Source: Peptostreptococcaceae bacterium
GTDB taxonomy: Bacteria; Bacillota; Clostridia; Peptostreptococcales; Anaerovoracaceae
Length of the DNA: 30,773 nt
Direction: 5' to 3'
Assembly (NCBI GenBank): GCA_016650115.1
Contig: JAENWI010000001.1
Span: forward strand, 1 to 30,773
Made by a program: the position numbers and the translations under genes. This document shows, one piece after another, positions 820-12,206 of this stretch. Below the pieces are notes generated by a model. It had not been told where the DNA came from. It saw only the letters and a program-made list of their open reading frames with translations, and ran no database searches. The number at the start of each line of letters is the position of its first letter. Positions within the stretch are counted from its first letter, which is position 1.

Positions 820-1794
820 ATGTTTTTAGGAGCAATCGATATTGGTGGAACTAAAACAATAGTGGCAGTATGTGATGAAAAGGGTAACATAATAGAAATG
901 GAAAATTTTCCAACAGAAAATGGAGATTGGATGGTACATTTCAGAATTACCGCAGAAAAATTCATTCAGTGTGTAAATAAACTTCAAATTGATATAAATG
1001 AGGATTTATCAGGTATAGGAATTAATGTTCCAGGTATGGTTGATGAAAATGGCATTTTGATTTATGCGCCTCATCAAAACTGGAGAGATGTGCATGTGAA
1101 AGATTATTTTTCGAATTATTTCAAGACGGATAAAATAATCGTTGAAAATGATGTTAATTCGTGTGCTGTTGGAGAAATGATTTTTGGTGGCGGAGGTCAC
1201 GATTTCCTTTGGATTACAATCAGTACTGGAAATGGAGGGGCAATTATTGCAAACGGCCAATTAATTAGGGGGAATCAAAGCTGCGCCGGAGAATTTGGCC
1301 ATTTAAAAGTTGAATTTGAATCCCCAAGAAAATGTTCGTGTGGTCAATATGGTTGTCTAGAGGCTCATAGCTCCGGCACAGCTATTAAAGAACAGTTTGA
1401 AGAAGCTTTATTATATGATTTGAATTTAAAAGAAACTGTGCTTAACAAGCAAATAAAAGACGAGAAATTCAAAATTGACGCCTATGGCTTAAGCCTCTTG
1501 GCTCGAGAAGGGAATTCTGTAGCAATTGATATATTTACAAGGACGGGGATGTATCTTGGCAGGGCTATTTCGTATGGAGTTAATATTTCGAATCCACAGA
1601 CTGTTTATTTGGGGGGAGGAATTGCTGAATCACTAGATCTAATTTTACCGGCTATTATTATGGAATTGGATAAATGTGCAATAGAAGAATGTGGAAAAGT
1701 TACAATTTGCAAGACCAAATTGGGGTATAACGCTGCAATAATTGGCGCATCGGCATTGGTATATCTTCAGAAAGATATACTTGCTAATTTGTAA
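820..1794 (+). CDS. ROK-family sugar kinase (no HTH)
   Basis: N-terminal DIGGTK phosphate-1 motif, ENDVN, ISTGNGG, GEFGH, CSCGQYGCLE zinc motif, GGGIA; no N-terminal DNA-binding domain. Confidence 0.9.
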   Translation: MFLGAIDIGGTKTIVAVCDEKGNIIEMENFPTENGDWMVHFRITAEKFIQCVNKLQIDINEDLSGIGINVPGMVDENGILIYAPHQNWRDVHVKDYFSNYFKTDKIIVENDVNSCAVGEMIFGGGGHDFLWITISTGNGGAIIANGQLIRGNQSCAGEFGHLKVEFESPRKCSCGQYGCLEAHSSGTAIKEQFEEALLYDLNLKETVLNKQIKDEKFKIDAYGLSLLAREGNSVAIDIFTRTGMYLGRAISYGVNISNPQTVYLGGGIAESLDLILPAIIMELDKCAIEECGKVTICKTKLGYNAAIIGASALVYLQKDILANL

Positions 1795-1862: not shown

Positions 1863-2870
1863 TTGAATATTAAAGATATTGCCAGTTTGACAGGACTTTC
1901 TGTTGCTACTGTATCCAGAGTTATAAATAATCATTCAAGCGTAACCAAAGAAACCAGAGAAAAAGTTGAAAAAGTAATAAAAGAAACAGGTTATACGCCA
2001 AATTTCCTGGGCAGGAATTTACGCGTCTCTAAAACACATAAGATTCTTGTTATTATCCCAACAATAGGCAATTTGTTTTATTCGGAAATACTTGAAGCTA
2101 TTCAAGAGGCATCTACTAACTCGGGATTCAATATATTAATCGGTATTACAAATAATGACACTGAGTTGGAAAAGAAATATATGGAACTTTTAACCACAAA
2201 ACAAGTCGATGGTGCCATTTTATTTCTTTCTCGATTTGATAAAGAGATTATGACCGCCTGGTCAAAAAAATTCCCGATTGTTCAGTGTTGTGAATATACA
2301 AGAGGATCAGATGTTACGAATGTAAGCATTGACAATAAGCAAGGGGCATACGATGCTGTGTCTTATTTGATCAGTAAGGGACATACAAAAATCGGTGCAA
2401 TAAGAGGTCAGCTGTATTTTGCTTCAGAAGCGGATAGAACAGATGGATACATGCAGGCATTGTCAGATAACGGGATAGAACGTGATTTGAAATATTCCTA
2501 TGTAACAGAATATACCATGGAAGGCGGTAAGAAAGGTGCGGAGGCACTCATGAGATTAGAAAATCCGCCGACTGCCATATTTGCGTATGGTGATACAATA
2601 GCAATCGGTGTAATAAAAACATTGAAAGATATGAAAAAAATTGTAATGAATAGAAAAGATGGCAAGAGAAATGTAGCAGTGCTCGGGTTTGATGATATTC
2701 CTCTTTGCACTTTATTCACACCTACAATATCAACGGTGGAACAGCCAAAATATCAGCTCGGAGTAACTGCCTTTAATTTGTTAATGGAAAAAATGAATGA
2801 TCCGGATATGGAAAATAAATCAGTTGTCTTACCACATAGATTAATAATAAGACAATCAAGTGAATTTTAG
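1863..2870 (+). CDS. LacI/GalR-family transcriptional regulator
   Basis: HTH IKDIA...SVATVSRVIN, hinge GYTPN, periplasmic-type core ending GFDD...STVEQP; TTG start after RBS GGAGGT. Confidence 0.95.
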   Translation: MNIKDIASLTGLSVATVSRVINNHSSVTKETREKVEKVIKETGYTPNFLGRNLRVSKTHKILVIIPTIGNLFYSEILEAIQEASTNSGFNILIGITNNDTELEKKYMELLTTKQVDGAILFLSRFDKEIMTAWSKKFPIVQCCEYTRGSDVTNVSIDNKQGAYDAVSYLISKGHTKIGAIRGQLYFASEADRTDGYMQALSDNGIERDLKYSYVTEYTMEGGKKGAEALMRLENPPTAIFAYGDTIAIGVIKTLKDMKKIVMNRKDGKRNVAVLGFDDIPLCTLFTPTISTVEQPKYQLGVTAFNLLMEKMNDPDMENKSVVLPHRLIIRQSSEF

Positions 2871-2880
2871 GAGGTGTAAA

Positions 2881-4014
2881 ATGAAAAAGTATAGAGTAGG
2901 TATCATAGGTAGTGGTTTTATAGGTAGTGTTCATGTTGAAGCAGTAAGACGCCTGGGACTAGGTGAAATCGTAGCACTTACTGAAAAACAGGATGCAAAA
3001 GGAAAGGCCGAAGCACTTTATATACCTGATTATTTTGATGATTACAAAAAAATGATAGATACGAAGGAATTGGATATGGTCCATATTTGTACACCGAATA
3101 ATACCCATCATGAAATGAGCACTTATGCTTTAAAAAAAGGTGTGAATGTTATTTGTGAAAAACCAATGTGCAGGACCATTGAAGAAGGCGAAGATATGGT
3201 TAAGGTAGCGAAGGAGACAGGACTTGTCAATGCAATCAATTTTCATAACAGATTTTATCCAATGACTTATGAAATGAAAGAAAAAATTAAAATGGGACAG
3301 GTTGGCGATATTTGGTCAGTTCATGGAGTTTATCTGCAGGACTGGTTATTCCATGATACAGATTATAACTGGAGAATTGATCCGGCTTTTTCTGGTTCAA
3401 CTCGGGCTGTAGCCGATATAGGTTCACATTGGATTGATCTTGCTGAAACGGTTACAGGGTTAAAAGTCGTTGAAGTTTTTGCTGATTTTGCTACCTTCCA
3501 TAAAACCAGAAAGAAATCTCTTGATAATATTGCCTTCAGTAAAGAAAAGTCGGATATTTATGAGGAAATAAAGATTGAATCTGAGGATCATGCACATATA
3601 TTACTTAGATTTGAGAATGGTGCAGTGGGTAATGCAGTAATAAGTCAGGTGGTTGCCGGAAGAAAAAACAGAATAACTCTTAATGTAGATGGATCAGAAG
3701 AGGCTCTCTTTTGGACGACGGACGATTTGAATAATCTGTGGATTGGGCATAGAGATTCGTCAAATGAAATACTGACAAAGGACCCTAGTCTTGTCAGTAA
3801 TGCTACAATTAAACAAATAGCTTATCCCGGTGGGCATGCAGAGGGATTTCCAGATGCTTTCAAGAACAACTTCAGAGCCATTTATAAATCAATAGAAGAT
3901 AAAAGTTCGCCAATTGAGTATGCAACCTTTGCCGACGGACTCAGAGAAATGAAAATATGCGATAAGATATTTGAAAGTTATCATACAAATAAATGGGTTA
4001 AAGTTGACGAATAG
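2881..4014 (+). CDS. Gfo/Idh/MocA-family NAD(P)-dependent oxidoreductase
   Basis: GIIGSGFIG Rossmann motif, ICTPN..H, CEKP, DIGSHWID; start moved to ATG 2881 because RBS GGAGGT is at 2870-2875. Confidence 0.92.
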   Translation: MKKYRVGIIGSGFIGSVHVEAVRRLGLGEIVALTEKQDAKGKAEALYIPDYFDDYKKMIDTKELDMVHICTPNNTHHEMSTYALKKGVNVICEKPMCRTIEEGEDMVKVAKETGLVNAINFHNRFYPMTYEMKEKIKMGQVGDIWSVHGVYLQDWLFHDTDYNWRIDPAFSGSTRAVADIGSHWIDLAETVTGLKVVEVFADFATFHKTRKKSLDNIAFSKEKSDIYEEIKIESEDHAHILLRFENGAVGNAVISQVVAGRKNRITLNVDGSEEALFWTTDDLNNLWIGHRDSSNEILTKDPSLVSNATIKQIAYPGGHAEGFPDAFKNNFRAIYKSIEDKSSPIEYATFADGLREMKICDKIFESYHTNKWVKVDE

Positions 4015-4026
4015 AAAAGAAGTGAG

Positions 4027-5397
4027 ATGATGATAAAAAATTCAGTAATGAAATATACAAAAGAACTGGCAGACAATTTGGATAAAACGGATTTCAATGT
4101 TTTGACGCAAATCATTGAAAGACTTGTTGTTACAAAAATTTCTGGCAAGACTGTTTTTACTGCAGGAAATGGCGGCAGCGCATCAACAGCCTCACATATG
4201 GCCAATGATTTCATAAAAGGCTGCAGAGTGCATAATAGAGAAGGATTTAAAATACTTTGTCTTGCCGATTCAAGCGCCATAATTACTTGTTTGGCAAATG
4301 ATTTTTCATATGAGGAAATATTTTCAATCCCATTAAAAACATTGGGTAAAAAAGGAGACACGCTTGTTGTTTTCAGTGGCAGCGGGAACTCTCCCAATAT
4401 AATTAAAGCTGTTATGCAGGCAAAAGAAATGGGGATTTTCACCATTGGATTTTCTGGGAGGGACGGTGGGCAACTAAAGGGAATTTGCGACATTTTACTG
4501 ATAGCGCCGACAAACTCAATGGAACAGCTTGAGGATATGCATATGATATATGAACATGCAATGTCCTGCGCGATACAAGAAGAACTGACAGATCAATGGG
4601 GTATCGAGATTGTTAAATTCCCCCAAAAGGTAATGAAGATAAAATCAGCATTATTTGATTTTGATGGAACGGTGAGTCTTATCAGAGAAGGCTGGCAGGA
4701 TGTGATGATCCCTTATTTTATTGAAGTTCTATCTGGTACTCCTGGCGCCGAAGATTCTACAAAAATAAAAAATTGCGTCAGAGAATTTGTTGATGTTTTA
4801 ACGGGTAAACAAACAATTTTTCAGTGCATGAGGCTTGATGAAGAGGTTGTCAGACGTGGTGGAGAATCAGTAAATCCATTGATTTACAAGCAGGAATATT
4901 TAAAAAGACTTATGGAGAGAATCAGGCACAGACATGAAAAACTTAAGTTAGGTACAAACTCTGAAGAATATATTGTGAAAGGGTGTGTTGATTTACTTAA
5001 GGGACTTAGGAAAGAGGGTATTGCTATATATCTTGCAAGTGGGACAGATGAAGCAGATGTCTTAGATGAAGTGAAATTACTTGGGCTTAGCGAATATTTT
5101 GACGGTGGAATCTATGGCGCTGTGGATGGCGTGACAGATTGCTCAAAGGAACTTGTTATTAAAAAAATTATTGCGGAAAACAAAATAGAGCCTGAACAAC
5201 TTGTTTCGTTTGGAGATGGGTATGTGGAAATAGAACTTGTTAAAAATATTGGAGGCTACACCTTTGGTGTTGCAACGGATGAGGTTCGAAAAAAAGGTAT
5301 TAATGAGTGGAAAAGAAACAGATTGTTAGCAGCCGGTGCAGATGCAATAATTCCAGACTTTGAAGAAAGCCAAAAAATTATTGATTTTATTAAGTAA
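4027..5397 (+). CDS. GmhA-like SIS sugar-phosphate isomerase fused to a C-terminal HAD hydrolase
   Basis: SIS motifs GNGGSA..ASH, TCLANDFSYEEIF, SGSGNS, LEDMH; HAD motifs FDFDGT, LASGT, K, FGDGYVE. Confidence 0.88.
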   Translation: MMIKNSVMKYTKELADNLDKTDFNVLTQIIERLVVTKISGKTVFTAGNGGSASTASHMANDFIKGCRVHNREGFKILCLADSSAIITCLANDFSYEEIFSIPLKTLGKKGDTLVVFSGSGNSPNIIKAVMQAKEMGIFTIGFSGRDGGQLKGICDILLIAPTNSMEQLEDMHMIYEHAMSCAIQEELTDQWGIEIVKFPQKVMKIKSALFDFDGTVSLIREGWQDVMIPYFIEVLSGTPGAEDSTKIKNCVREFVDVLTGKQTIFQCMRLDEEVVRRGGESVNPLIYKQEYLKRLMERIRHRHEKLKLGTNSEEYIVKGCVDLLKGLRKEGIAIYLASGTDEADVLDEVKLLGLSEYFDGGIYGAVDGVTDCSKELVIKKIIAENKIEPEQLVSFGDGYVEIELVKNIGGYTFGVATDEVRKKGINEWKRNRLLAAGADAIIPDFEESQKIIDFIK

Positions 5398-5408
5398 GGA
5401 GCTGGAAA

Positions 5409-6392
5409 ATGCCATATAAAGAATTTGACAGAAGCAGGCTTGTTTTATTACCTCTGATTCAAAGAGTTCATGACGTTAATATTTCGATCATTAAAAATTT
5501 TAATGATAATGTGGAAATGATAGAAAATGAAAAGTTTGACTTGTTGGCAGAGGCAATCATTAAGGCGAAATTGAAAAAAGCAACTACCTTAATGATGTAT
5601 GGTGCGCATGTTATAAGAACCGGTAACGGGTTATATATGATAGAAATGATGAAAAGAGGACTTATTACTCACTTTGCAACAAATGGTGCTGGTGCTATTC
5701 ATGATTTCGAATTGGCTATGATAGGTGCAACCTGTGAGAGTGTAGCAAAATATATTTCTGAAGGACAATTTGGATTGTGGGAAGAAACAGGTATATTTAA
5801 TGAAGCTGTTAACCAAGGTTATGCGTTGGGTTTGGGATTTGGAGAAGCTGTTGGAAAATATATTTGGGAGCATGATTTCCCGTTTAAAGAAAAAAGCGTT
5901 TTAGCAATGGGCTATAAACTGGGTGTGCCTTGCACTGTTCATATTGGAATCGGCAACGATATTACAAATGAACTTCCAAATTGTGATGGGGCTGCGATAG
6001 GAGCCACTTCTTATAAAGATTTCCTGATATACACTGAAAGCATAACTAATTTAGAAAATGGGATTTTTCTGAACTTTGGATCTGCAGTAGCAGGACCCGA
6101 AGTGTATTTAAAGGCACTTGCCATGGCACGAAATGTCGCTAACCAGGAAAACAGAAAAATAACCAACTTTACAACAGCTGTTTTTGATCTAATCCCTATC
6201 GAAAGTGAAGATTTCACAGAAATACCACCTAAAACAGACCCCAGATATTATTTCAGACCCTGGAAAACCATTTTGTCCAGGACCGTTGCAGATGGTGGAA
6301 AAAGCTATTACATTTCCGGAGACCATGGAATTACAGTACCTAATATAGTGAAGAGGGCAATAGGGTTATATGAAAAAAATGAAAATATCTGA
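5409..6392 (+). CDS. Conserved hypothetical protein, probable deoxyhypusine-synthase-like NAD-binding fold
   Basis: MYGAHVIRTG...GLITHFATNGAGAIHD, SVLAMGYKLGVP and FLNFGSAV parallel DHS-family segments; judged by eye. Confidence 0.6.
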   Translation: MPYKEFDRSRLVLLPLIQRVHDVNISIIKNFNDNVEMIENEKFDLLAEAIIKAKLKKATTLMMYGAHVIRTGNGLYMIEMMKRGLITHFATNGAGAIHDFELAMIGATCESVAKYISEGQFGLWEETGIFNEAVNQGYALGLGFGEAVGKYIWEHDFPFKEKSVLAMGYKLGVPCTVHIGIGNDITNELPNCDGAAIGATSYKDFLIYTESITNLENGIFLNFGSAVAGPEVYLKALAMARNVANQENRKITNFTTAVFDLIPIESEDFTEIPPKTDPRYYFRPWKTILSRTVADGGKSYYISGDHGITVPNIVKRAIGLYEKNENI

Positions 6393-7368
6393 TTTCAACG
6401 TAGATAACATCATTGACAGACTAAAAAACATAGAGAAAATAACGATTACTGTAGTGGGGGATTATAGCCTGGATAAATATGTTTACAGTGATCCTGCAAG
6501 AGATGAACTTTCGGTTGAAACTGGTCTGATTGCTTATCAGATACATGATACTGCCAAGTATGCAGGGATTGGAGGAACAGTCACAAACAATCTTAGAAGC
6601 GTAGGGGCAAATGTCATTTGCATTGGACTTGTGGGAAATGATGGAGAAGGATTTGAGATGATCAGAGAACTGAAAAAAACTGGAGCAGACGTGGAAAAAA
6701 TGATAGTTTCTGACGATATCCAAACGAATACTTACCTTAAGCCAATGCGAGGACAGAACAGGCAAAATTCTGTTGAAATAAATAGGCTTGATTTTAGAAA
6801 TTTTAAAGCGACATCAAAGAATGCGGAAGATAAAATAATAAAGAACCTAAGAAAAGCTGTTTCTGTTTCACATGGTGTCATTATTACAGATCAATTTATT
6901 GATAGAAACCATGGAGTAATTACAGACAAAGTACGAACAGAAATCAGCCGAATTGCGTTAGAATATCCTAATGTATTTTTTTGTGCCGATTCCAGAGGTT
7001 TTATTAATGAGTTTAAAAATGTAATCCAGAAGTGTAATGAATTTGAGATAAAAAAAACAGTAAATAACGCAGAAAACAAGGAAACTATAAAAACTAGATT
7101 TGTTACTTTGGGAGGAAAAGGAGTAAAAATATATTCTGAAAACGAGACAGTTCTTGTCCCCAGTTTTAAGGCAAAACCTCCTTTGGACTTTTGTGGTGCA
7201 GGGGATGCTACTAATGCCGGCATCATGATTGGTCTTACTTTGGGGCTTAAAATTGAAGAATCGGTTTTACTTGGAGCCTGTATGGCTTCTATAACAATTG
7301 AGCAAATTGGTATTACGGGAGTTGCCGGTTATGATCAAATTATTAATAAAATTAATGGGAAAAAATAA
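6370..7368 (+). CDS. PfkB/ribokinase-family kinase, RfaE/HldE domain-I-like, stand-alone
   Basis: VVGDYSLDKY (cf. VVGDVMLDRY), GIGGTVTNNL, GLVGND, DFCGAGD anion hole; no cytidylyltransferase-type domain. Confidence 0.85.
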   Translation: MKKMKISDFNVDNIIDRLKNIEKITITVVGDYSLDKYVYSDPARDELSVETGLIAYQIHDTAKYAGIGGTVTNNLRSVGANVICIGLVGNDGEGFEMIRELKKTGADVEKMIVSDDIQTNTYLKPMRGQNRQNSVEINRLDFRNFKATSKNAEDKIIKNLRKAVSVSHGVIITDQFIDRNHGVITDKVRTEISRIALEYPNVFFCADSRGFINEFKNVIQKCNEFEIKKTVNNAENKETIKTRFVTLGGKGVKIYSENETVLVPSFKAKPPLDFCGAGDATNAGIMIGLTLGLKIEESVLLGACMASITIEQIGITGVAGYDQIINKINGKK

Positions 7369-7510: not shown

Positions 7511-8533
7511 ATGAAAAAAGTATTGGCTATAGTAATGGCATTGGTCCTGGTACTAGGAATGGTTGCTTGTGGTGGCGGCGGTGCTGCTGAACCGGAAAAA
7601 GTTGGAACATTAGGTGTAGTAATGCCTAACGCAACTCATGGTTTTTTAGGTGAAAGTATTGCACATGCAAAAGCAGAAGCAGATGCTATTGCAGCTGAAA
7701 CAGGACTTACTGTTAAATTCTTAACTTCAGCTGAATCTTCAGAACAAAACAATCAAATTGATCAGCTAATTGCTGATGGTGTTGATTGTATCGTACTTTG
7801 GCCACATAATGGTGATGAAGTAAGATCTTCAGCACAGGCAGTAATGGAAGCTGGCATCCCTCTAATTATCTATGATAGATTAATAAATGACTTCGTACCG
7901 ACTGCTGAGTTAATGGGAGACAATGAAACAATCGGCAAGATGACAGGGGAATACTTTAATAAATTCTTCGCTACTGAATTGGCGGCAGGAAAAGTAAATG
8001 TACTTGAATTCAAAGGTGACAACTCAACAGTTCCAGAACAGAGATCAAAAGGATTTGCTTCGACTGCAAGTGCAAATATAAATATTGTACAACAGTTCTC
8101 AACCGACTGGCAAAGAGCGAAAGCTATGGAACAGTTAGAAACGTGGTTTGCAAGTTCAAGTGTAGCAGATATTGAAGCTCTTCAGGGAATATTTACTCAT
8201 GATGATGAAGTTGTTCTTGGCGTTCTAGATGCTATTAATAACTATGATGGACCAGCAACACTGAACATTAAACTGGTATCAGGTGTAGGCGGAAGAGTTG
8301 AAAACTTAGACACATTTGCACCTTGGGCAGAAAAAGGCGTTATGCAGGTTACCTATGCATTTTCACCATCAATGGTAAGAGATGCTGTAAAGCTTGGATC
8401 AGAAATTGTACTTGATGGAGCAACTCCAACTGGACTGAAATTAATCCCTACAGTTGAAATTGATAATTCAAATGAACAGGAATTCAGAACAAATGATATC
8501 TTCGTAACAAGATACAGCATTACAGCAGAGTAA
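7511..8533 (+). CDS. Sugar ABC transporter substrate-binding lipoprotein (RbsB-like)
   Basis: Signal peptide with lipobox MVA-C, QIDQLIADGVDCIVLWP, AGIPLIIYDR, R..GF, DWQR..A, HDDE. Confidence 0.93.
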   Translation: MKKVLAIVMALVLVLGMVACGGGGAAEPEKVGTLGVVMPNATHGFLGESIAHAKAEADAIAAETGLTVKFLTSAESSEQNNQIDQLIADGVDCIVLWPHNGDEVRSSAQAVMEAGIPLIIYDRLINDFVPTAELMGDNETIGKMTGEYFNKFFATELAAGKVNVLEFKGDNSTVPEQRSKGFASTASANINIVQQFSTDWQRAKAMEQLETWFASSSVADIEALQGIFTHDDEVVLGVLDAINNYDGPATLNIKLVSGVGGRVENLDTFAPWAEKGVMQVTYAFSPSMVRDAVKLGSEIVLDGATPTGLKLIPTVEIDNSNEQEFRTNDIFVTRYSITAE

Positions 8534-8552
8534 TATTATAATTTAGTTAAGC

Positions 8553-8585
8553 ATGGATGTCGATTGTAATACAATCGACATCCAT
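8553..8585. other. Perfect 15-bp stem-loop after the SBP gene (mRNA stabiliser or partial terminator)
   Basis: ATGGATGTCGATTGT-AAT-ACAATCGACATCCAT; no following U-tract. Confidence 0.8.
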
Positions 8586-8624
8586 ATTACTAATATATTT
8601 CACTTTAGATAGGTGGGTATCAAC

Positions 8625-10130
8625 ATGTTTTTAGAAATGAAAAATATAACTAAAAAATTTGGACCTGTGGTAGCATTAGATGATGTGAGCTTTTCTGTCG
8701 GAGAAGCAGAAATCCATGGTCTTCTTGGAGAAAATGGTGCCGGAAAGTCAACACTAATGAATGTTTTAGCAGGAACCTTTCCACCAACTAGTGGAGAAGT
8801 TTTTTTAAATGGCCAGCATTTAACGGGGCTTAATGCCAAAAAATCCTTTGCGCTTGGCATAGGATTTGTACATCAGGAACTGAATTTAATCAATGATTTA
8901 AAAATATATGAAAACTTATTTCTTGGAGAAGAAATTACAAATAAATGGGGCACTCTAGATAAACCTTTAATGAGATTAAAAGCAAAAGAAGTAATGAAAA
9001 AGATGAATTTGGATATTAGTCCTGATTTACAGGTTGCATATTTAGATACGTCAGTAAAGCAACTTGTGGAAATCGCAAGAGCGCTTCTTTTTGATTGTAA
9101 ACTCATTATAATGGATGAACCAACTACAGCTTTAACAAACAAAGAAATAGAAAACCTGTTTTCTATTATGAGAAAATTGAAAAATGATGGTGTCTCTATT
9201 ATATATATATCACATAAAATGCCAGAATTGTTTTCTATTTGTGATAAGTACACCGTCTTAAGAGATGGGAAATTTATACAAAGCGGATATTTTAAAGATA
9301 TTGACGAGAAAATTGCAACCCAGCTATTGGTTGGACGAAGTTTATTAGAGGCCGAAATTACCAAGGAAGCAGTGACAGGAGAGACCATTCTATCGGTTAA
9401 AGATATTACCTGTAAAGGGTATTTCGAGAATATATCTTTCGACTTAAAAGAAGGTGAAATTTTAGCAATCACTGGACTTCATGGAGATGGAAGAGGTGAA
9501 CTTTCTGAGGCATTGTTTGGTGCAAGAAGACTGGATTGCGGGCAGGTCATCCTGAGGGGAGAAAAACTGAACTTCAGGCATATCAGTAATGTGATAAAAA
9601 AGGGAATCGGTATGGTTCCAAGAAGCAGAAAAGAAAGATCTATTATTAAAGATATGAGTATTTTAAACAATATGGCGACAGCATATTTCGTCGGCAAACA
9701 TAAAAAAGCCTATATAAGCAATAAAGACACTGATAGATTATTTGAAGAAAATCAGAAAAAGGCAGCGATTAGAGTTGGAAGCAGGCATGATCTGATAACA
9801 TCCTTAAGTGGTGGAAACCAGCAAAAGGTTATTATATCCAGGTGGCTGGAGATTAACTCTGATATTTACATTTTAGATAATCCGACACAGGGAATTGATG
9901 TTGGAGCCAAGTTTGAGATGTATAAAATAATAAATGGACTTGCAGAAAATGGGAAAAGTATTATTATGTTTTCTTCTGAATTCCCTGAAATTTACAAAGT
10001 GGCGGACAGATGCCTGGTTATGTATAAGGGGAAAATCAATGCAGAATTGGATAGAAGTCAACTGTCTGAAGTCGATGTAATGTATTATGCGACTGGATCA
10101 AATATGGAGGGCATAAAAAATGAAATTTAA
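8625..10130 (+). CDS. CUT2 sugar ABC transporter ATP-binding protein (RbsA/MglA-like, two NBDs)
   Basis: GENGAGKST, IIMDEPT, YISHKM, LSGGNQQKV; ATG 8625 preferred (RBS AGGTGG at 8611-8616). Confidence 0.95.
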   Translation: MFLEMKNITKKFGPVVALDDVSFSVGEAEIHGLLGENGAGKSTLMNVLAGTFPPTSGEVFLNGQHLTGLNAKKSFALGIGFVHQELNLINDLKIYENLFLGEEITNKWGTLDKPLMRLKAKEVMKKMNLDISPDLQVAYLDTSVKQLVEIARALLFDCKLIIMDEPTTALTNKEIENLFSIMRKLKNDGVSIIYISHKMPELFSICDKYTVLRDGKFIQSGYFKDIDEKIATQLLVGRSLLEAEITKEAVTGETILSVKDITCKGYFENISFDLKEGEILAITGLHGDGRGELSEALFGARRLDCGQVILRGEKLNFRHISNVIKKGIGMVPRSRKERSIIKDMSILNNMATAYFVGKHKKAYISNKDTDRLFEENQKKAAIRVGSRHDLITSLSGGNQQKVIISRWLEINSDIYILDNPTQGIDVGAKFEMYKIINGLAENGKSIIMFSSEFPEIYKVADRCLVMYKGKINAELDRSQLSEVDVMYYATGSNMEGIKNEI

Positions 10131-11151
10131 TTTATTCGAAAAACATGTTGAGGAGGAAGCCCCAACAATACAAGGTACCGGATTCAAGGATAAATTCTTC
10201 AAGTTTTATCATAATTATACTTTTGTTTTTTCATTCGCTGTTTTAATAATAATTGCGACTTATTTCAACCCGTCTTTTTTGAGCTATGGTAATATTACCC
10301 TTCTGTTGCTGCAGTCCACTATTAAAGGAATCATCGCCTGTGGCATGACTCTCGTTATCATTGCTGGAATGATTGACCTTTCTGTCGGTTCAATGGTAGC
10401 TCTAGTAGGAGGATTGGGCGTAGTAGTTTTAAATACAACAGGAAGTGCATGGATAATGTTTTTCTTTTGCGTCGCATTTGGAACCTTCCTTGGCGCAATA
10501 AACGGGTTGCTGGTAACAAAAGCCAAGATCGCACCATTTATAGTAACACTAGCAACAATGGTTGCCTTCAGATCAATCATCGTACAGTTAGGCCAGGGTG
10601 GTCCGTTTAATGTTGACCCTAAGGTTTATGACAGTTTTAGACTTGTGGCGGCAGGCTATTTGTTTAGAAGCGATAATTTCAAAGGGATTCCATATATGGC
10701 TATCTGGTTTGTTGCTATTGTTTTAATTATGGCGTTTATCATGTCAAAAACAAAATTTGGCAGATATGTATATGCAGTCGGATCTAATGAACTGGCAGCC
10801 AAATTAACCGGAATAAATACTATTTATATTAAAACCATGTGTTTTGTTATTACCGGTCTGCTGGTTGGGGTAGCTGCTTTTTTACTTGCCTCAAGACTTA
10901 CGTCGATAACAGCTCCAAATGTCGGAATGTCTTACGAGTTGGATGCAATTGCCGCAGTTGCAATTGGTGGAACGGCCATGGCGGGTGGAAGCGGTCTCAT
11001 TGTTGGCACCTTCATTGGTGCTATTATGTTGCAAATGATAGAAGGAATTTTAATCGCAGCGCAAATACCTGTATTTTTAAATGGTTTAGTAAAAGGTATA
11101 ATTATTATTGTAGCTGTAGTGTTCCAAAGCAGAAGAGAGAGGAAGGCTTAA
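10120..11151 (+). CDS. Sugar ABC transporter permease (RbsC-like)
   Basis: Multi-TM; GMIDLSVGS, APFIVTLAT, FGRYVYAVGSNE, YELDAIAAVAIGGT. Confidence 0.95.
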   Translation: MKFNLFEKHVEEEAPTIQGTGFKDKFFKFYHNYTFVFSFAVLIIIATYFNPSFLSYGNITLLLLQSTIKGIIACGMTLVIIAGMIDLSVGSMVALVGGLGVVVLNTTGSAWIMFFFCVAFGTFLGAINGLLVTKAKIAPFIVTLATMVAFRSIIVQLGQGGPFNVDPKVYDSFRLVAAGYLFRSDNFKGIPYMAIWFVAIVLIMAFIMSKTKFGRYVYAVGSNELAAKLTGINTIYIKTMCFVITGLLVGVAAFLLASRLTSITAPNVGMSYELDAIAAVAIGGTAMAGGSGLIVGTFIGAIMLQMIEGILIAAQIPVFLNGLVKGIIIIVAVVFQSRRERKA

Positions 11152-12144
11152 GTGAGAAATATTGCGCTGATGACTGGACAATTTTCAGATATCCCTTTTG
11201 AAAACCTATGCGAAAAATTGAACGAACTTGGATATAAGGGGGTTGAATTAGCCTGCCTTGGCGATCATTTTAATGTTCGAGAAGCAGCAGAAAATTTGAA
11301 TTATTGCCAGAAAAAACTTGATATATTAAATAAATACAACCTAGAATGTAAGGTTATATCTGGACATCTAATAGGGCAGTGTGTAGGAGATCTATACGAT
11401 AAAAGACTTGATAACTTTGCCCCTGAAAAACTTTCTGGAGATGGGGATGCAATTAAAAAATGGGCAATTGAAGAAATGAAATATTTGGCAAAAGCAGCCC
11501 ATAATATGGGAGTTGAAGTGGTTTCGTTTTTTACGGGTTCTTCAATCTGGAGATACATTTATTCATTTCCGCAAACAACGGAGGCTATTATAGAAGACGG
11601 ATTTGATGAAATTCTAAAAATATGGTCACCAATTATGGATGAATATGACAAATGGGGAGTTAAACTTGCATTGGAAGTTCATCCTACTGAAATCGCCTTT
11701 GATTACTATACAACCGAAAGGCTTTTGAAAAAATTCGATTATAGAGAGACTTTAGGCATTACTTTTGATCCGAGTCATTTATTATGGCAAGGTGTTAATC
11801 CTACCATATTCCTTCAAGATTTTGCCGATAGAATATACAATGTACATATGAAAGACGTGAAGATTAACAGAGATGGGAAAGCTGGTATTTTAGGGTCGCA
11901 CATTGAATTTGGGGATACAAGGCGAGGATGGAATTTTGTTTCTATTGGCCACGGAGATGTAAATTTTGAAGAGATTATTCGTCAGCTTAACAATATGAAT
12001 TATACTGGAAATATTTCAATTGAGTGGGAAGATAGCGGTATGGACAGGATGTATGGGGCGGCAGAAGCACTTGGATATATTGAAAAACTTGATTTCCCAA
12101 TATCCAAAATAGCCTTCGATAAAGCCTTGAGCTCATCAACGTAA
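11152..12144 (+). CDS. IolE/XylA-like TIM-barrel sugar (keto-sugar) isomerase, epimerase or hydratase
   Basis: Metal-site motifs ALEVHP, FDPSH, VHMKD, GHGDV, SIEWED. Confidence 0.88.
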   Translation: MRNIALMTGQFSDIPFENLCEKLNELGYKGVELACLGDHFNVREAAENLNYCQKKLDILNKYNLECKVISGHLIGQCVGDLYDKRLDNFAPEKLSGDGDAIKKWAIEEMKYLAKAAHNMGVEVVSFFTGSSIWRYIYSFPQTTEAIIEDGFDEILKIWSPIMDEYDKWGVKLALEVHPTEIAFDYYTTERLLKKFDYRETLGITFDPSHLLWQGVNPTIFLQDFADRIYNVHMKDVKINRDGKAGILGSHIEFGDTRRGWNFVSIGHGDVNFEEIIRQLNNMNYTGNISIEWEDSGMDRMYGAAEALGYIEKLDFPISKIAFDKALSSST

Positions 12145-12167: not shown

Positions 12168-12206
12168 GGTATTGAGGATATTTTGTATGTCTTCAGTACC
12201 TTTTTT
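12168..12206 (+). terminator. Intrinsic terminator closing the sugar cluster
   Basis: GGTATTGAGGATAT / ATGTCTTCAGTACC stem (with G-U pairs) followed by TTTTTT. Confidence 0.8.

What the first reader, a model, noticed from the sequence alone, without database searches (positions are those of the whole stretch)
5409..6392. Deoxyhypusine-synthase-fold protein in the middle of a sugar-phosphate operon
Seen: TTLMMYGAHVIRTG...GLITHFATNGAGAIHD resembles the DHS segment (G-A-M-V-x-x-G...V-x-x-I-V-S-T-G-A-N-x-x-H-D), SVLAMGYKLGVP resembles SILYxAYKxxVP, FLNFGSAV resembles the IIGGG loop, and PWKTI...ISGDHGITVP sits where DHS has SWGKI...ADAT..P. Known: DHS uses tightly bound NAD for transient oxidation and re-reduction. 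From memory, a similar uncharacterised family lies beside gmhA/hldE genes in some Deltaproteobacteria (to be verified). Inference: this may be a new NAD-recycling sugar(-phosphate) epimerase or aminating enzyme rather than a polyamine enzyme. The gene is translationally coupled to the kinase gene (23-nt overlap).
Basis: partly seen in the sequence, partly recalled or inferred. Interest (0 to 1): 0.75.

Follow-up and report, generated by a model that had tools for sequence, protein, structure and literature searches.

The report
DHS-fold enzyme of heptose-like pathway
The gene at 5409-6392 encodes a member of a large, catalogued but uncharacterised enzyme family (NCBIfam "GSU2086 family") with the deoxyhypusine-synthase / ornithine-cyclodeaminase fold; across bacteria it sits beside diverged copies of the heptose-pathway isomerase, kinase and phosphatase, so it probably supplies an unknown chemical step in making or converting a seven-carbon sugar phosphate.

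Summary
ORF 5409-6392 (327 aa) matches NCBIfam NF052581 "GSU2086 family" (E 4e-113). Its high-confidence model (pLDDT 95.9) superposes on the NAD-dependent ornithine-cyclodeaminase domain of AgrE/ArgZ (Z 19.9) and on deoxyhypusine synthase (Z 18.4-18.8).

It is not a deoxyhypusine synthase. The column of the catalytic Lys329 never holds Lys, and Glu137 is replaced by a near-invariant His.

In 80 genomic loci it lies next to a GmhA-like SIS isomerase and/or HAD phosphatase (74) and an HldE-kinase-like PfkB (71). Elsewhere the domain is fused to each of these and to HldC-type nucleotidyltransferases.

Nitrospina watsonii has a canonical gmhA/hldE/hldD set plus a separate, diverged set with GSU2086. 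The family therefore marks a parallel pathway and does not simply replace HldD.

My best reading (about 0.4) is a homodimeric enzyme with regenerated NAD that epimerises or rearranges a heptose phosphate before nucleotide activation. NAD binding, substrate and product are all untested.

This scan has flagged the same family in several other genomes. I found no paper assigning it a function.

The parts
5409..6392 (+). GSU2086-family protein (327 aa), DHS / ornithine-cyclodeaminase fold; the finding itself
   Evidence: NF052581 at 377.8 bits (cut-off 250), E 4.4e-113. Model pLDDT 95.9. Z 19.9 to AgrE and 18.4-18.8 to DHS. Homodimer ipSAE 0.95 against a best control of 0.00.
5396..5401 (+). Shine-Dalgarno AAGGAG, 7 nt before the ATG at 5409
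   Evidence: Read directly from the sequence.
4027..5397 (+). GmhA-like SIS isomerase fused to a capped HAD phosphatase or mutase
   Evidence: SIS_2 at 2.1e-16 plus HAD. TIGR00441 gmhA at 122.5 bits, below the cut-off of 209. Adjacent to the family in 74 of 80 loci.
6370..7368 (+). PfkB kinase, closest to HldE domain I (heptose-7-P kinase) but diverged; overlaps the finding by 23 nt
   Evidence: PfkB at 4.5e-26. TIGR02198 at 117.6 bits, cut-off 345. Adjacent in 71 of 80 loci. Fused to the family in P0143.
820..1794 (+). ROK-family sugar kinase
   Evidence: PF00480 at 5.8e-54. Found in 31 of 80 related loci.
1863..2870 (+). LacI-family repressor
   Evidence: LacI HTH plus Peripla_BP_1/3.
2860..4014 (+). 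GFO/IDH/MocA oxidoreductase (levoglucosan- or inositol-dehydrogenase-like)
   Evidence: Co-occurs with the TIM-barrel gene in all 15 loci that have the latter.
7511..11151 (+). CUT2-type monosaccharide ABC importer: binding protein 7511-8533, ATPase 8613-10130, permease 10120-11151
   Evidence: Peripla_BP_4, ABC_tran x2, BPD_transp_2.
11152..12144 (+). Xylose-isomerase-like TIM barrel (IolE-like)
   Evidence: PF01261 at 1.9e-32; TIGR04379 at 2.1e-16, below cut-off.
12168..12200 (+). Terminator-like hairpin plus T-run that closes the operon
   Evidence: 14-pair stem followed by TTTTTTGTTT.

Best explanation
The gene encodes a homodimeric enzyme of the GSU2086 family. This family is a third branch of the DHS / ornithine-cyclodeaminase fold and is the signature component of a parallel, diverged heptose-type sugar-phosphate pathway.

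It works with its own GmhA-like isomerase, HldE-like anomeric kinase and a phosphatase (HAD here; HD or DUF89 elsewhere). Most likely it acts on the phosphorylated sugar itself (heptulose-7-P, heptose-7-P or the 1,7-bisphosphate), before any nucleotide activation.

By analogy with every characterised relative, I propose it holds NAD+ as a regenerated cofactor. It would oxidise one hydroxyl transiently and return the hydride, which gives an epimer or another redox-neutral rearrangement product. The diverged kinase and isomerase would then be tuned to that product. In this window the module sits in a LacI-controlled operon with a monosaccharide ABC importer, a GFO dehydrogenase, a TIM-barrel enzyme and a ROK kinase, so here it probably converts an imported sugar.

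Shown: fold, family, gene linkage, domain fusions, predicted dimer.
Inferred: NAD use, substrate, reaction type, direction of flux.

Sub-confidences: belongs to a heptose-like phosphate pathway 0.85; acts before or without nucleotide activation 0.6; NAD transient oxidation 0.5; epimerase specifically 0.3.
For: Family and fold:
- NF052581, E 4e-113.
- Z 19.9 to AgrE, including its NAD+/ornithine complex 6lrg, and Z 18.4-18.8 to DHS.
- hhalign to PF01916 proteins, 97% probability.

Linkage: of 80 genomic loci, 74 have the SIS and/or HAD gene and 71 have the PfkB gene next to it. The full 10-gene set recurs in three different gene orders.

Rosetta-stone fusions of the domain:
- HAD (P0124, P0138, P0160)
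- SIS (P0125, P0139)
- PfkB (P0143)
- HldC-type nucleotidyltransferase (P0126, P0203, P0263 at 203 bits > cut-off 181.5, P0269)
- DUF89 phosphatase plus NT (P0185, P0218)

Geobacter: operon gmhB-hldE-GSU2086-gmhA, with similar Tn-seq defects for the last three genes.

Parallel pathway: N. watsonii has canonical gmhA (200 bits), hldE (502 bits) and hldD (378 bits) at 318-328 kb. It also has a separate cluster at 191-195 kb with GSU2086 and diverged SIS (93 bits), NT and NT-PfkB (78-96 bits). The window's own SIS (122-125 bits) and PfkB (117 bits) are equally diverged.

No HldC-type transferase was found in G000, G041, G043, G044 or G045. Yet the protein is 60-78% identical across them and 68% identical to the Lachnospiraceae copy that does have an NT-PfkB neighbour. 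The common substrate should therefore be a non-nucleotide intermediate.

Active-site hints:
- Near-invariant polar residues H67, H98, D99, E101, E110, H178, D184, D204, E231, K235, N242, D260, R283, R291.
- Predicted symmetric dimer, ipSAE 0.95 against a best control of 0.00; this mark was reached by 20 of 30 solved homodimers and 1 of 23 monomers. H178, D184, D204, E231, K235, N242 and R291 lie at the interface, as with the interface active sites of DHS.
- In tandem-duplicated fusions the C-terminal copy loses H67 (P0122, P0140, P0133), and in P0122 and P0140 also H98, while keeping the interface set.
Against: - NAD binding is not demonstrated. Several DHS NAD contacts are replaced or fall in a gap in the alignment (Asp238 gap; Asn106 to His; Glu137 to His).
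- I could not inspect model coordinates or the ligand pose.
- Known relatives oxidise C-N bonds, not C-OH bonds.
- A kinase plus a phosphatase is hard to fit into a catabolic operon with an importer, so the direction of flux in this window is unclear.
- In diderm 'type B' clusters the gene is always followed by, or fused to, a second HldC-like transferase. That could mean it acts on a nucleotide-linked sugar there.
- No literature or experiment supports any activity.
Confidence: 0.4

Rival explanations
1. Net NAD(P)-dependent dehydrogenase. It makes a keto-heptose (phosphate or nucleotide) that later enzymes branch, methylate or aminate, rather than a redox-neutral epimerase.
For: In Nitrospina, Nitrospiraceae, Spirochaetota and Deltaproteobacteria clusters the gene sits with E1 alpha/beta (TPP) proteins, radical-SAM/SPASM and B12-radical-SAM enzymes and GT2/GtrA/PMT_2. 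No SDR 4,6-dehydratase or other oxidase is present to make the keto-sugar such enzymes usually need.
Against: All characterised fold relatives regenerate NAD+ within the catalytic cycle. The Clostridial operons already have a GFO dehydrogenase and lack any of the tailoring enzymes.
Confidence: 0.15
2. It acts on a nucleotide-linked sugar. The former NAD pocket would bind the ADP/NDP moiety of ADP-heptose or of a 7-phospho-linked NDP-heptose, and the enzyme would modify the heptose part (an HldD-like or other role).
For: Fusions and strict adjacency to HldC-type nucleotidyltransferases, one above the HldC cut-off. ADP-heptose resembles the ADP-ribose part of NAD. The position in the Geobacter operon is like that of hldD in other operons (the hldD comparison is from my own knowledge of H. 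pylori HP0857-0860).
Against: No HldC-type transferase in the window's genome or in four other carriers, yet the proteins are 60-70% identical. N. watsonii has a genuine HldD as well.
Confidence: 0.15
3. NAD-dependent cyclase or ring-opening enzyme (a MIPS/EEVS-like logic in a different fold) that interconverts a C7 sugar phosphate and a cyclitol phosphate.
For: Transient-oxidation enzymes do this chemistry. The window operon carries inositol-type partners: a GFO oxidoreductase matching the IolG model (6.9e-33), a TIM barrel matching IolE (2.1e-16), and a PfkB with a weak IolC match. In type B clusters a small cytidylyltransferase-like protein follows the gene, as in inositol-phosphate activation.
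Against: This rests purely on analogy. The partner SIS and PfkB are closest to GmhA and HldE. No cyclitol-specific gene is conserved across contexts.
Confidence: 0.07
4. Amine chemistry like DHS or ornithine cyclodeaminase: transfer or formation of an amino group on the sugar, or a polyamine or amino-acid reaction unrelated to the neighbouring genes.
For: All characterised relatives act on amines. The motif NGAxxIHDxE...G(T/S)(S/T) is shared with AgrE and archaeal cyclodeaminases.
Against: The Lys329 column is never Lys. No aminotransferase, amino-acid or polyamine gene recurs next to it. Linkage to sugar-phosphate enzymes is near universal.
Confidence: 0.06
5. Non-catalytic partner: a scaffold, regulator or specificity subunit of the kinase or isomerase that has kept only the fold.
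For: Translational coupling and fusions to every pathway enzyme. Tandem forms with one degenerate half exist.
Against: About twenty invariant or near-invariant polar and glycine residues lie in loops at the C-terminal ends of the strands, and identity is 46% between Bacillota and Nitrospinota. That pattern is typical of an enzyme.
Confidence: 0.07

Closest known systems
NCBIfam NF052581 'GSU2086 family protein' (type member Geobacter sulfurreducens GSU2086)
   Same: Full-length match well above the curated cut-off. Same association with gmhA/hldE-type genes.
   Different: Nothing differs in kind; the window's protein is a member. The family has no assigned function. Here it sits in a LacI/ABC-importer operon without a nucleotidyltransferase, whereas in Geobacter it lies in an LPS-type gmhB-hldE-X-gmhA operon.
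Ornithine cyclodeaminase domain of AgrE/ArgZ (PDB 6lrg, 6lrf, 6juy) and archaeal LOR/SDH-type cyclodeaminases (3c2q; Pfam PF21570)
   Same: Best structural match (Z 19-19.9). Shares the motif after strands 1-2 (G..V/HVI..G ... NGA/GGNA..(I/V)HD(F/I)E..G.T/S). The relatives use NAD+ that is regenerated in the cycle.
   Different: Only 13-18% identity. PF21570 scores 21.4 bits, below its cut-off of 27. It lacks the N-terminal domains of these enzymes. It has its own invariant set (H67, H178, D184, D204, K235, N242, D260, R283). The context is sugar phosphates, not arginine or ornithine.
Deoxyhypusine synthase / DHS-like homospermidine synthase (PF01916; PDB 1dhs, 7cmc, 8put)
   Same: Same fold over about 255-270 residues (Z 18.4-18.8). 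Motifs are collinear. Oligomer predicted, with conserved residues at the interface.
   Different: No Lys at the Lys329 column. Glu137 to His; His288 not kept; the Asp238 region is gapped. No PF01916 hit for this protein. No eIF5A or polyamine context.
HldD (ADP-L-glycero-D-manno-heptose 6-epimerase, SDR fold)
   Same: Possible functional analogue: a tightly-bound-nicotinamide, redox-neutral enzyme encoded within heptose operons.
   Different: Unrelated fold. HldD co-exists with this family in N. watsonii, and the window's genome has no ADP-heptose-forming transferase.

Membership tests
NCBIfam NF052581 GSU2086 family | Full-length HMM score above the curated cut-off (250 bits) | tested here: met
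   377.8 bits, residues 5-315 on model positions 1-300 of 301. 377.5 bits in the genome scan.
NCBIfam NF052581 GSU2086 family | Family-wide invariant residues present (G122, H178, G182, D204, F205, G218, D260, plus near-invariant H67, H98, D99, E101, K235, N242, R283, R291) | tested here: met
   All are present in P0001, the reference row of alignment A1.
Deoxyhypusine synthase (PF01916) | Pfam DS model above its gathering score | tested here: not met
   No PF01916 hit for P0001 at E <= 0.01. No hit in the genome at 1e-5. Only some relatives reach 19-26 bits, below the cut-off of 27.
Deoxyhypusine synthase (PF01916) | Catalytic lysine (human Lys329, WGK motif) that forms the enzyme-imine intermediate | tested here: not met
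   hhalign puts T287 under the Lys of WGK. That column is T/S/A/N in the 50-member alignment. The neighbouring K286 is replaced by E/M/V/Q/D in several members.
Deoxyhypusine synthase (PF01916) | NAD and spermidine contacts Glu137, Asp238, His288, Asp342 (human numbering, from my knowledge of 1DHS and UniProt P49366) | tested here: not met
   Glu137 = H98; Asp238 lies in an alignment gap; His288 = V232; Asp342 = D305, which is only semi-conserved (D/E/N/H). Gly283 = G224 is kept.
DHS-like / ornithine-cyclodeaminase structural superfamily | Fold match to solved members over most of the chain | tested here: met
   Foldseek probability 1.00, E 7e-9 to 2.6e-5. VIA-align Z 18-19.9. AFDB Swiss-Prot hits to ArgZ, archaeal cyclodeaminases and DHS.
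DHS-like / ornithine-cyclodeaminase structural superfamily | Tightly bound NAD+ used catalytically | not testable with these tools
The Gly-rich loops are kept, but some contacts are changed.
ArgZ-like_C_2nd (PF21570) | Pfam gathering score 27 bits | tested here: not met
   21.4 bits, E 2.2e-4, residues 46-108 only.
ADP-heptose pathway (GmhA/HldE/GmhB/HldD) as an operon type | Canonical GmhA, HldE kinase, HldC transferase and HldD above their NCBIfam cut-offs | tested here: not met
   The window's SIS scores 122.5 (cut-off 209) and its PfkB 117.6 (cut-off 345). No rfaE_dom_II match in G000, which is 80% complete. HldD was not searched for in G000 itself; in five other carriers of the family (G041-G045) no TIGR02197 match exceeds the cut-off.

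The most novel reading that the evidence does not exclude
The GSU2086 family is the committed enzyme of an unrecognised branch of C7-sugar metabolism that runs parallel to the ADP-heptose pathway. A DHS-fold enzyme with regenerated NAD would convert sedoheptulose-7-P or heptose-7-P into a new stereoisomer (or a cyclitol phosphate). That product would be built into surface glycans in diderm bacteria (clusters with radical-SAM, TPP-E1, GT2, GtrA and PMT_2 genes). It would be taken over by some large phages and used in gut and rumen Clostridia for uptake-linked conversion of an environmental seven-carbon sugar.
Probability: 0.3. Interest if true: 0.8.

Novelty: new variant of a known kind. Interest (0 to 1): 0.62.

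Why it matters
The DHS / ornithine-cyclodeaminase fold is known only for amine chemistry. A branch that works on sugar phosphates would be a new activity for this fold.

The family is large. At 50% identity clustering there are 2048 representative clusters at E <= 1e-3 and 384 at E <= 1e-30. It occurs in Bacillota, Planctomycetota, Nitrospinota, Spirochaetota, Thermotogota, Deltaproteobacteria and phage-like contigs.

Heptose metabolites are core LPS building blocks and innate-immune agonists. A parallel pathway making a different heptose would bear on cell-envelope biology, on host recognition of gut bacteria, and on annotation: many of these genes are auto-named 'deoxyhypusine synthase' or 'rfaE'.

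The Geobacter Tn-seq phenotype already links the gene to envelope function. Several cultured carriers make the question directly testable: Anaerotruncus massiliensis AT3, Pseudoflavonifractor sp. AF19-9AC, Lachnospiraceae bacterium P6B14, Nitrospina watsonii and G. sulfurreducens.

Tried and rejected
- Single-sequence search of the PDB found nothing; the profile search was needed.
- Literature searches for GSU2086, for DHS-like plus heptose/gmhA/sedoheptulose, for heptose catabolism operons and for Geobacter heptose gave no functional study. The AgrE structure paper is not held, so I could not take its NAD-contact list.
- Phage GenBank records: no homologue by tblastn, although two metagenomic phage-like contigs carry it.
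- I could not reach a Geobacter/Desulfobacterota genome handle, so I could not test whether such genomes lack HldD. The Tn-seq supplement shows no hldD, rfaD or gmhD term, but its gene table is truncated; this is weak evidence only.
- Simple 'HldD replacement' is rejected as a general rule because N. watsonii has both. 'GmhB replacement' and 'GmhA replacement' are rejected because a phosphatase and a SIS gene accompany, or are fused to, the family.
- Several context look-ups returned contigs too short to help. Cluster-member look-ups gave few named organisms. The ESM Atlas search added nothing beyond the family itself.
- The complex job included NAD, but ligands are not scored, so it says nothing about cofactor binding.
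Full report
1. WHAT IS THERE

ORF 5409-6392 (+) encodes 327 aa (P0001). AAGGAG lies at 5396-5401, and the upstream gene stops at 5397. The next gene starts at ATG 6370, inside the ORF's last 23 nt. A second in-frame ATG is at 6379.

The gene sits in a run of ten co-oriented genes:
- ROK kinase (820-1794)
- LacI repressor (1863-2870)
- GFO/IDH/MocA oxidoreductase (2860-4014)
- GmhA-like SIS domain fused to a HAD hydrolase (4027-5397)
- the finding (5409-6392)
- PfkB kinase (6370-7368)
- sugar-binding protein, ABC ATPase and permease (7511-11151)
- xylose-isomerase-like TIM barrel (11152-12144)

The run is closed by a terminator-like hairpin at 12168-12200. Downstream genes are housekeeping. The closest public locus is a Peptostreptococcales MAG at 92% protein identity with the same gene order. 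The window's assembly is 80% complete.

Pfam gives only a sub-threshold local hit to ArgZ-like_C_2nd. NCBIfam places the protein in NF052581 'GSU2086 family' at 377.8 bits against a cut-off of 250.

An alignment of 50 diverse members (A1, 33-76% identity to P0001) gave an AlphaFold model with pLDDT 95.9 and pTM 0.93.

- Foldseek against the PDB returns only ArgZ/AgrE C-terminal domains, the archaeal LOR/SDH-type protein 3c2q and deoxyhypusine synthases. E ranges from 7e-9 to 2.6e-5 at probability 1.00.
- The Swiss-Prot AlphaFold library returns the same families, including archaeal ornithine cyclodeaminases and bacterial 'DHS-like proteins'.
- VIA-align gives Z 19.9 (rmsd 3.2 A over 219 residues) to AgrE, including its NAD+/ornithine complex 6lrg. 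It gives Z 18.4-18.8 (rmsd 3.6-4.0 A over 253-269 residues) to DHS.
- By sequence, the family profile hits AgrE/ArgZ at 2.6e-7, 3c2q at 1.8e-4 and P. horikoshii DHS at 5e-3.
- hhalign of A1 against seven bona fide PF01916 proteins taken from Planctomycetota genomes gives 97% probability, E 7.8e-11, over 298 columns.

NF052581 also rings weakly in three archaeal control genomes (M. jannaschii, H. volcanii, M. acetivorans). It does not ring in the other three controls in which PF01916 scores above its cut-off (Caulobacter, Thermus, Sulfolobus). This fits a closer kinship to the cyclodeaminase branch; that last step is inference.

3. IT IS NOT A DEOXYHYPUSINE SYNTHASE

- In the hhalign alignment the Lys of the DHS WGK motif (human Lys329) falls on T287. 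That column is T/S/A/N throughout A1.
- The adjacent K286 is not invariant.
- Glu137 corresponds to the near-invariant H98, and Asn106 to H67.
- The Asp238 segment is a gap.
- His288 is not kept.
- Asp342 corresponds to a semi-conserved D/E/N/H.
- Gly283 (= G224) and the glycine-rich loops after strands 1 and 2 (G65, G72, G93) are retained.
(human residue roles are from my knowledge of 1DHS and UniProt P49366)

None of the five carrier genomes searched has a PF01916 protein. NAD binding is therefore plausible but not established.

4. WHAT IT TRAVELS WITH

The family is large. There were 8000 hits at the candidate cap, and every source name among the listed hits was 'hypothetical protein'. At 50% identity clustering there are 2048 representative clusters at E <= 1e-3 and 384 at E <= 1e-30. 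It is also patchy: 2 of 41 near relatives have it, and 5 of 301 sampled genomes of the phylum have a true member.

In 80 genomic loci, tblastn with the window's own proteins found the following next to it (lower bounds, since many contigs are short):

| Neighbour | Loci out of 80 |
|---|---|
| SIS and/or HAD gene | 74 |
| PfkB gene | 71 |
| ABC ATPase | 33 |
| ROK | 31 |
| GFO | 24 |
| TIM barrel | 15 (all 15 also have GFO) |

The complete set occurs in three gene orders:
- the window's order;
- LacI-SBP-ATPase-permease-GFO-TIM-HAD-X-PfkB-GmhA(-ROK), in Oscillospiraceae and Pseudoflavonifractor;
- GmhA-HAD-X-PfkB-SBP-ATPase-permease-GFO-TIM-ROK.

I read this as real functional coupling. De novo clustering of all neighbouring ORFs found no other strongly recurrent partner.

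Domain fusions in the representative set tie the domain to every enzyme class of the nucleotide-heptose route:
- HAD: P0124, P0138, P0160
- SIS: P0125, P0139
- PfkB: P0143
- cytidylyltransferase-like: P0126, P0203, P0263, P0269
- DUF89 phosphatase plus transferase: P0185, P0218

The fused transferases are HldC-like. P0263 scores 203 bits against a cut-off of 181.5; P0185 scores 172.8 and P0203 scores 168.3.

5. OTHER CONTEXT TYPES

(a) Geobacter sulfurreducens. The order is GSU2083 rmlA, GSU2084 gmhB, GSU2085 hldE, GSU2086, GSU2087 gmhA. The last three have similar Tn-seq defects on electrodes: -3.1, -3.2 and -3.7 (PMC5585712).

(b) A conserved 'type B' cluster. It is found in Nitrospina watsonii, a Nitrospiraceae MAG, a Spirochaetota MAG and a Deltaproteobacteria MAG. 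Its content is X, a small HldC-like transferase (or X fused to it), NT-PfkB, SIS, GT2, radical-SAM/SPASM and B12-radical-SAM enzymes, TPP-dependent E1 alpha/beta, and GtrA / PMT_2 / LPG_synthase membrane proteins. Lachnospiraceae bacterium P6B14 has a reduced form: radical SAM, GT2, HD hydrolase, X, NT-PfkB, SIS.

(c) Thermoguttaceae. X-PfkB stands alone and a GmhA-like gene lies elsewhere.

(d) Two phage-like metagenomic contigs. One also carries an HldE and a dTDP-glucose-4,6-dehydratase-like SDR.

Three unrelated phosphatase families (HAD, HD, DUF89) fill the same slot in different lineages.

6. A PARALLEL PATHWAY, NOT A PATCH ON THE CANONICAL ONE

N. watsonii has canonical gmhA (200 bits), hldE (502 bits) and hldD (378 bits, above its cut-off) at 318-328 kb. 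It has a second, diverged set at 191-195 kb next to X: SIS at 93 bits, and NT and NT-PfkB at 78-96 bits.

The partners of X are diverged everywhere:

| Model (cut-off) | Window | Other scores |
|---|---|---|
| SIS, TIGR00441 (209) | 122-125 | 119, 117, 69 |
| PfkB, TIGR02198 (345) | 117 | 112, 107, 94 |

No HldC-type transferase was found in the window's genome or in four other carriers. None of five carriers has an HldD above its cut-off.

X in the transferase-less Clostridial operons is 60-78% identical across loci. It is 68% identical to the Lachnospiraceae copy that does have a transferase, and 46% identical to the Nitrospina protein. The reaction is therefore probably the same everywhere, and its substrate should be common to all contexts. 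That points to a sugar phosphate upstream of nucleotide activation (inference).

7. ARCHITECTURE

A two-copy prediction scores ipSAE 0.95 in all three runs, against a best control of 0.00. This mark was reached by 20 of 30 solved homodimers and 1 of 23 monomers. The calibration holds only roughly here, because my own alignment was used and a ligand was present.

The symmetric interface contains F121, G122, H178, G182, D184, D204, F205, E231, K235, N242 and R291. It does not contain H67, H98, D99, E101 or E110.

In tandem-duplicated fusion proteins:
- the C-terminal copy loses H67 in P0122, P0140 and P0133;
- P0122 and P0140 also lose H98;
- F121 is changed in P0122 and P0133, and lies in an alignment gap in P0140;
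- E110 is lost in P0140 only;
- the interface set is kept throughout.

This suggests two sub-sites: a catalytic H67/H98 pocket at the strand ends, where DHS holds the nicotinamide-ribose and substrate, and an interface set. The arrangement resembles the composite interface active sites of DHS. It agrees with an earlier follow-up in this scan on a tandem gene pair (e1-5224747), which I checked only on fusion proteins.

8. MECHANISM: BEST GUESS AND LIMITS

All characterised members of this fold use NAD+ that is reduced and re-oxidised within one turnover. This holds for DHS, the DHS-like homospermidine enzymes and the AgrE/archaeal ornithine cyclodeaminases (established knowledge; 6lrg is the NAD+ complex). 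Transferred to a sugar phosphate, the simplest outcome is epimerisation. Dehydration, cyclisation or branching-type rearrangements are also possible.

I therefore propose a redox-neutral, NAD-mediated conversion of a heptulose or heptose phosphate. The product would be handled by the diverged SIS, kinase and phosphatase.

Three things remain unexplained:
- why an importer-linked LacI operon needs both a kinase and a phosphatase;
- what the imported sugar is;
- why type B clusters carry two HldC-like transferases.

I found no paper assigning a function.

9. VERDICT

'Not a polyamine enzyme' is supported by a failed membership test. The context claim is verified and extended. The proposed chemistry remains a reasonable but untested inference.

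The family is already catalogued (NF052581), and this scan has met it in several other genomes. The novelty therefore lies in the unknown function, not in the sequence. Interest 0.62.

Noticed in passing
L103:9001-14654 (Nitrospina watsonii OX336137.1); also L107, L106, L090: A conserved 'type B' cluster spans four phyla. It contains the GSU2086-family gene, a small HldC-like transferase, NT-PfkB, SIS, GT2, two unknown proteins of about 175 aa, radical-SAM/SPASM and B12-radical-SAM enzymes, TPP E1 alpha/beta, and GtrA/PMT_2/LPG_synthase membrane proteins. It looks like a surface-glycan modification system built on a heavily tailored heptose. No HAD, HD or DUF89 phosphatase is visible, and there are two transferase domains.
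   Followed up: partly
G346 (N. watsonii) C1:318849-328190 versus C1:191000-195000: One genome holds two heptose gene sets. The canonical set is gmhA (200 bits), hldE (502 bits) and hldD (378 bits). The diverged paralogous set (78-96 bits) sits next to the GSU2086-family gene.
   Followed up: yes
L092:9001-10017 and L093:8082-9092 (metagenomic contigs of 112 kb and 52 kb): Phage-like contigs carry the family. Their other genes include a fused multisubunit RNA polymerase, an Acb2/Tad1-hairpin protein, 2H-SAK, CsrA, HNH and N6/N4 methylase. L093 also carries a full-length HldE (341 bits) and a dTDP-glucose-4,6-dehydratase-like SDR. GenBank phage records had no homologue.
   Followed up: partly
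P0122, P0140, P0133 (representative proteins, 582-693 aa): Tandem duplications of the domain in one chain. The C-terminal copy has lost H67 in all three, and in P0122 and P0140 also H98, but keeps the interface residues (H178, D184, D204, K235, N242, D260). In P0133 the N-terminal copy lacks the first ~120 residues. These look like built-in pseudo-heterodimers.
   Followed up: partly
29 of 301 sampled genomes of the phylum (e.g. G227:C36:4905-5126): ORFs of about 400-440 aa match NF052581 only over positions 41-114 (E 1e-10 to 1e-6). They are probably bacterial LOR/SDH-type ornithine-cyclodeaminase-like paralogues that share the HD.E motif region.
   Followed up: no
P0148 (723 aa); P0264 (806 aa): The domain also appears joined to a GH38 alpha-mannosidase N-terminal region and to a XylR/AraC-type regulator. 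These may be true fusions or gene-call merges. If real, they point to mannose-configured substrates and sugar sensing.
   Followed up: no
L029:10206-11576 (Thermoguttaceae MAG): Directly after the X-PfkB pair comes a DUF3863/DUF3864 protein and then a LUD-domain protein. The ORF upstream of X (451 aa) has no Pfam or NCBIfam match.
   Followed up: no
window 4027-5397: The HAD half of the SIS-HAD fusion belongs to the capped HAD_2 type, with a faint beta-phosphoglucomutase match (TIGR01990, E 0.0037). A mutase role (1-P <-> 7-P via the bisphosphate made by the PfkB kinase) is conceivable instead of a simple phosphatase.
   Followed up: no
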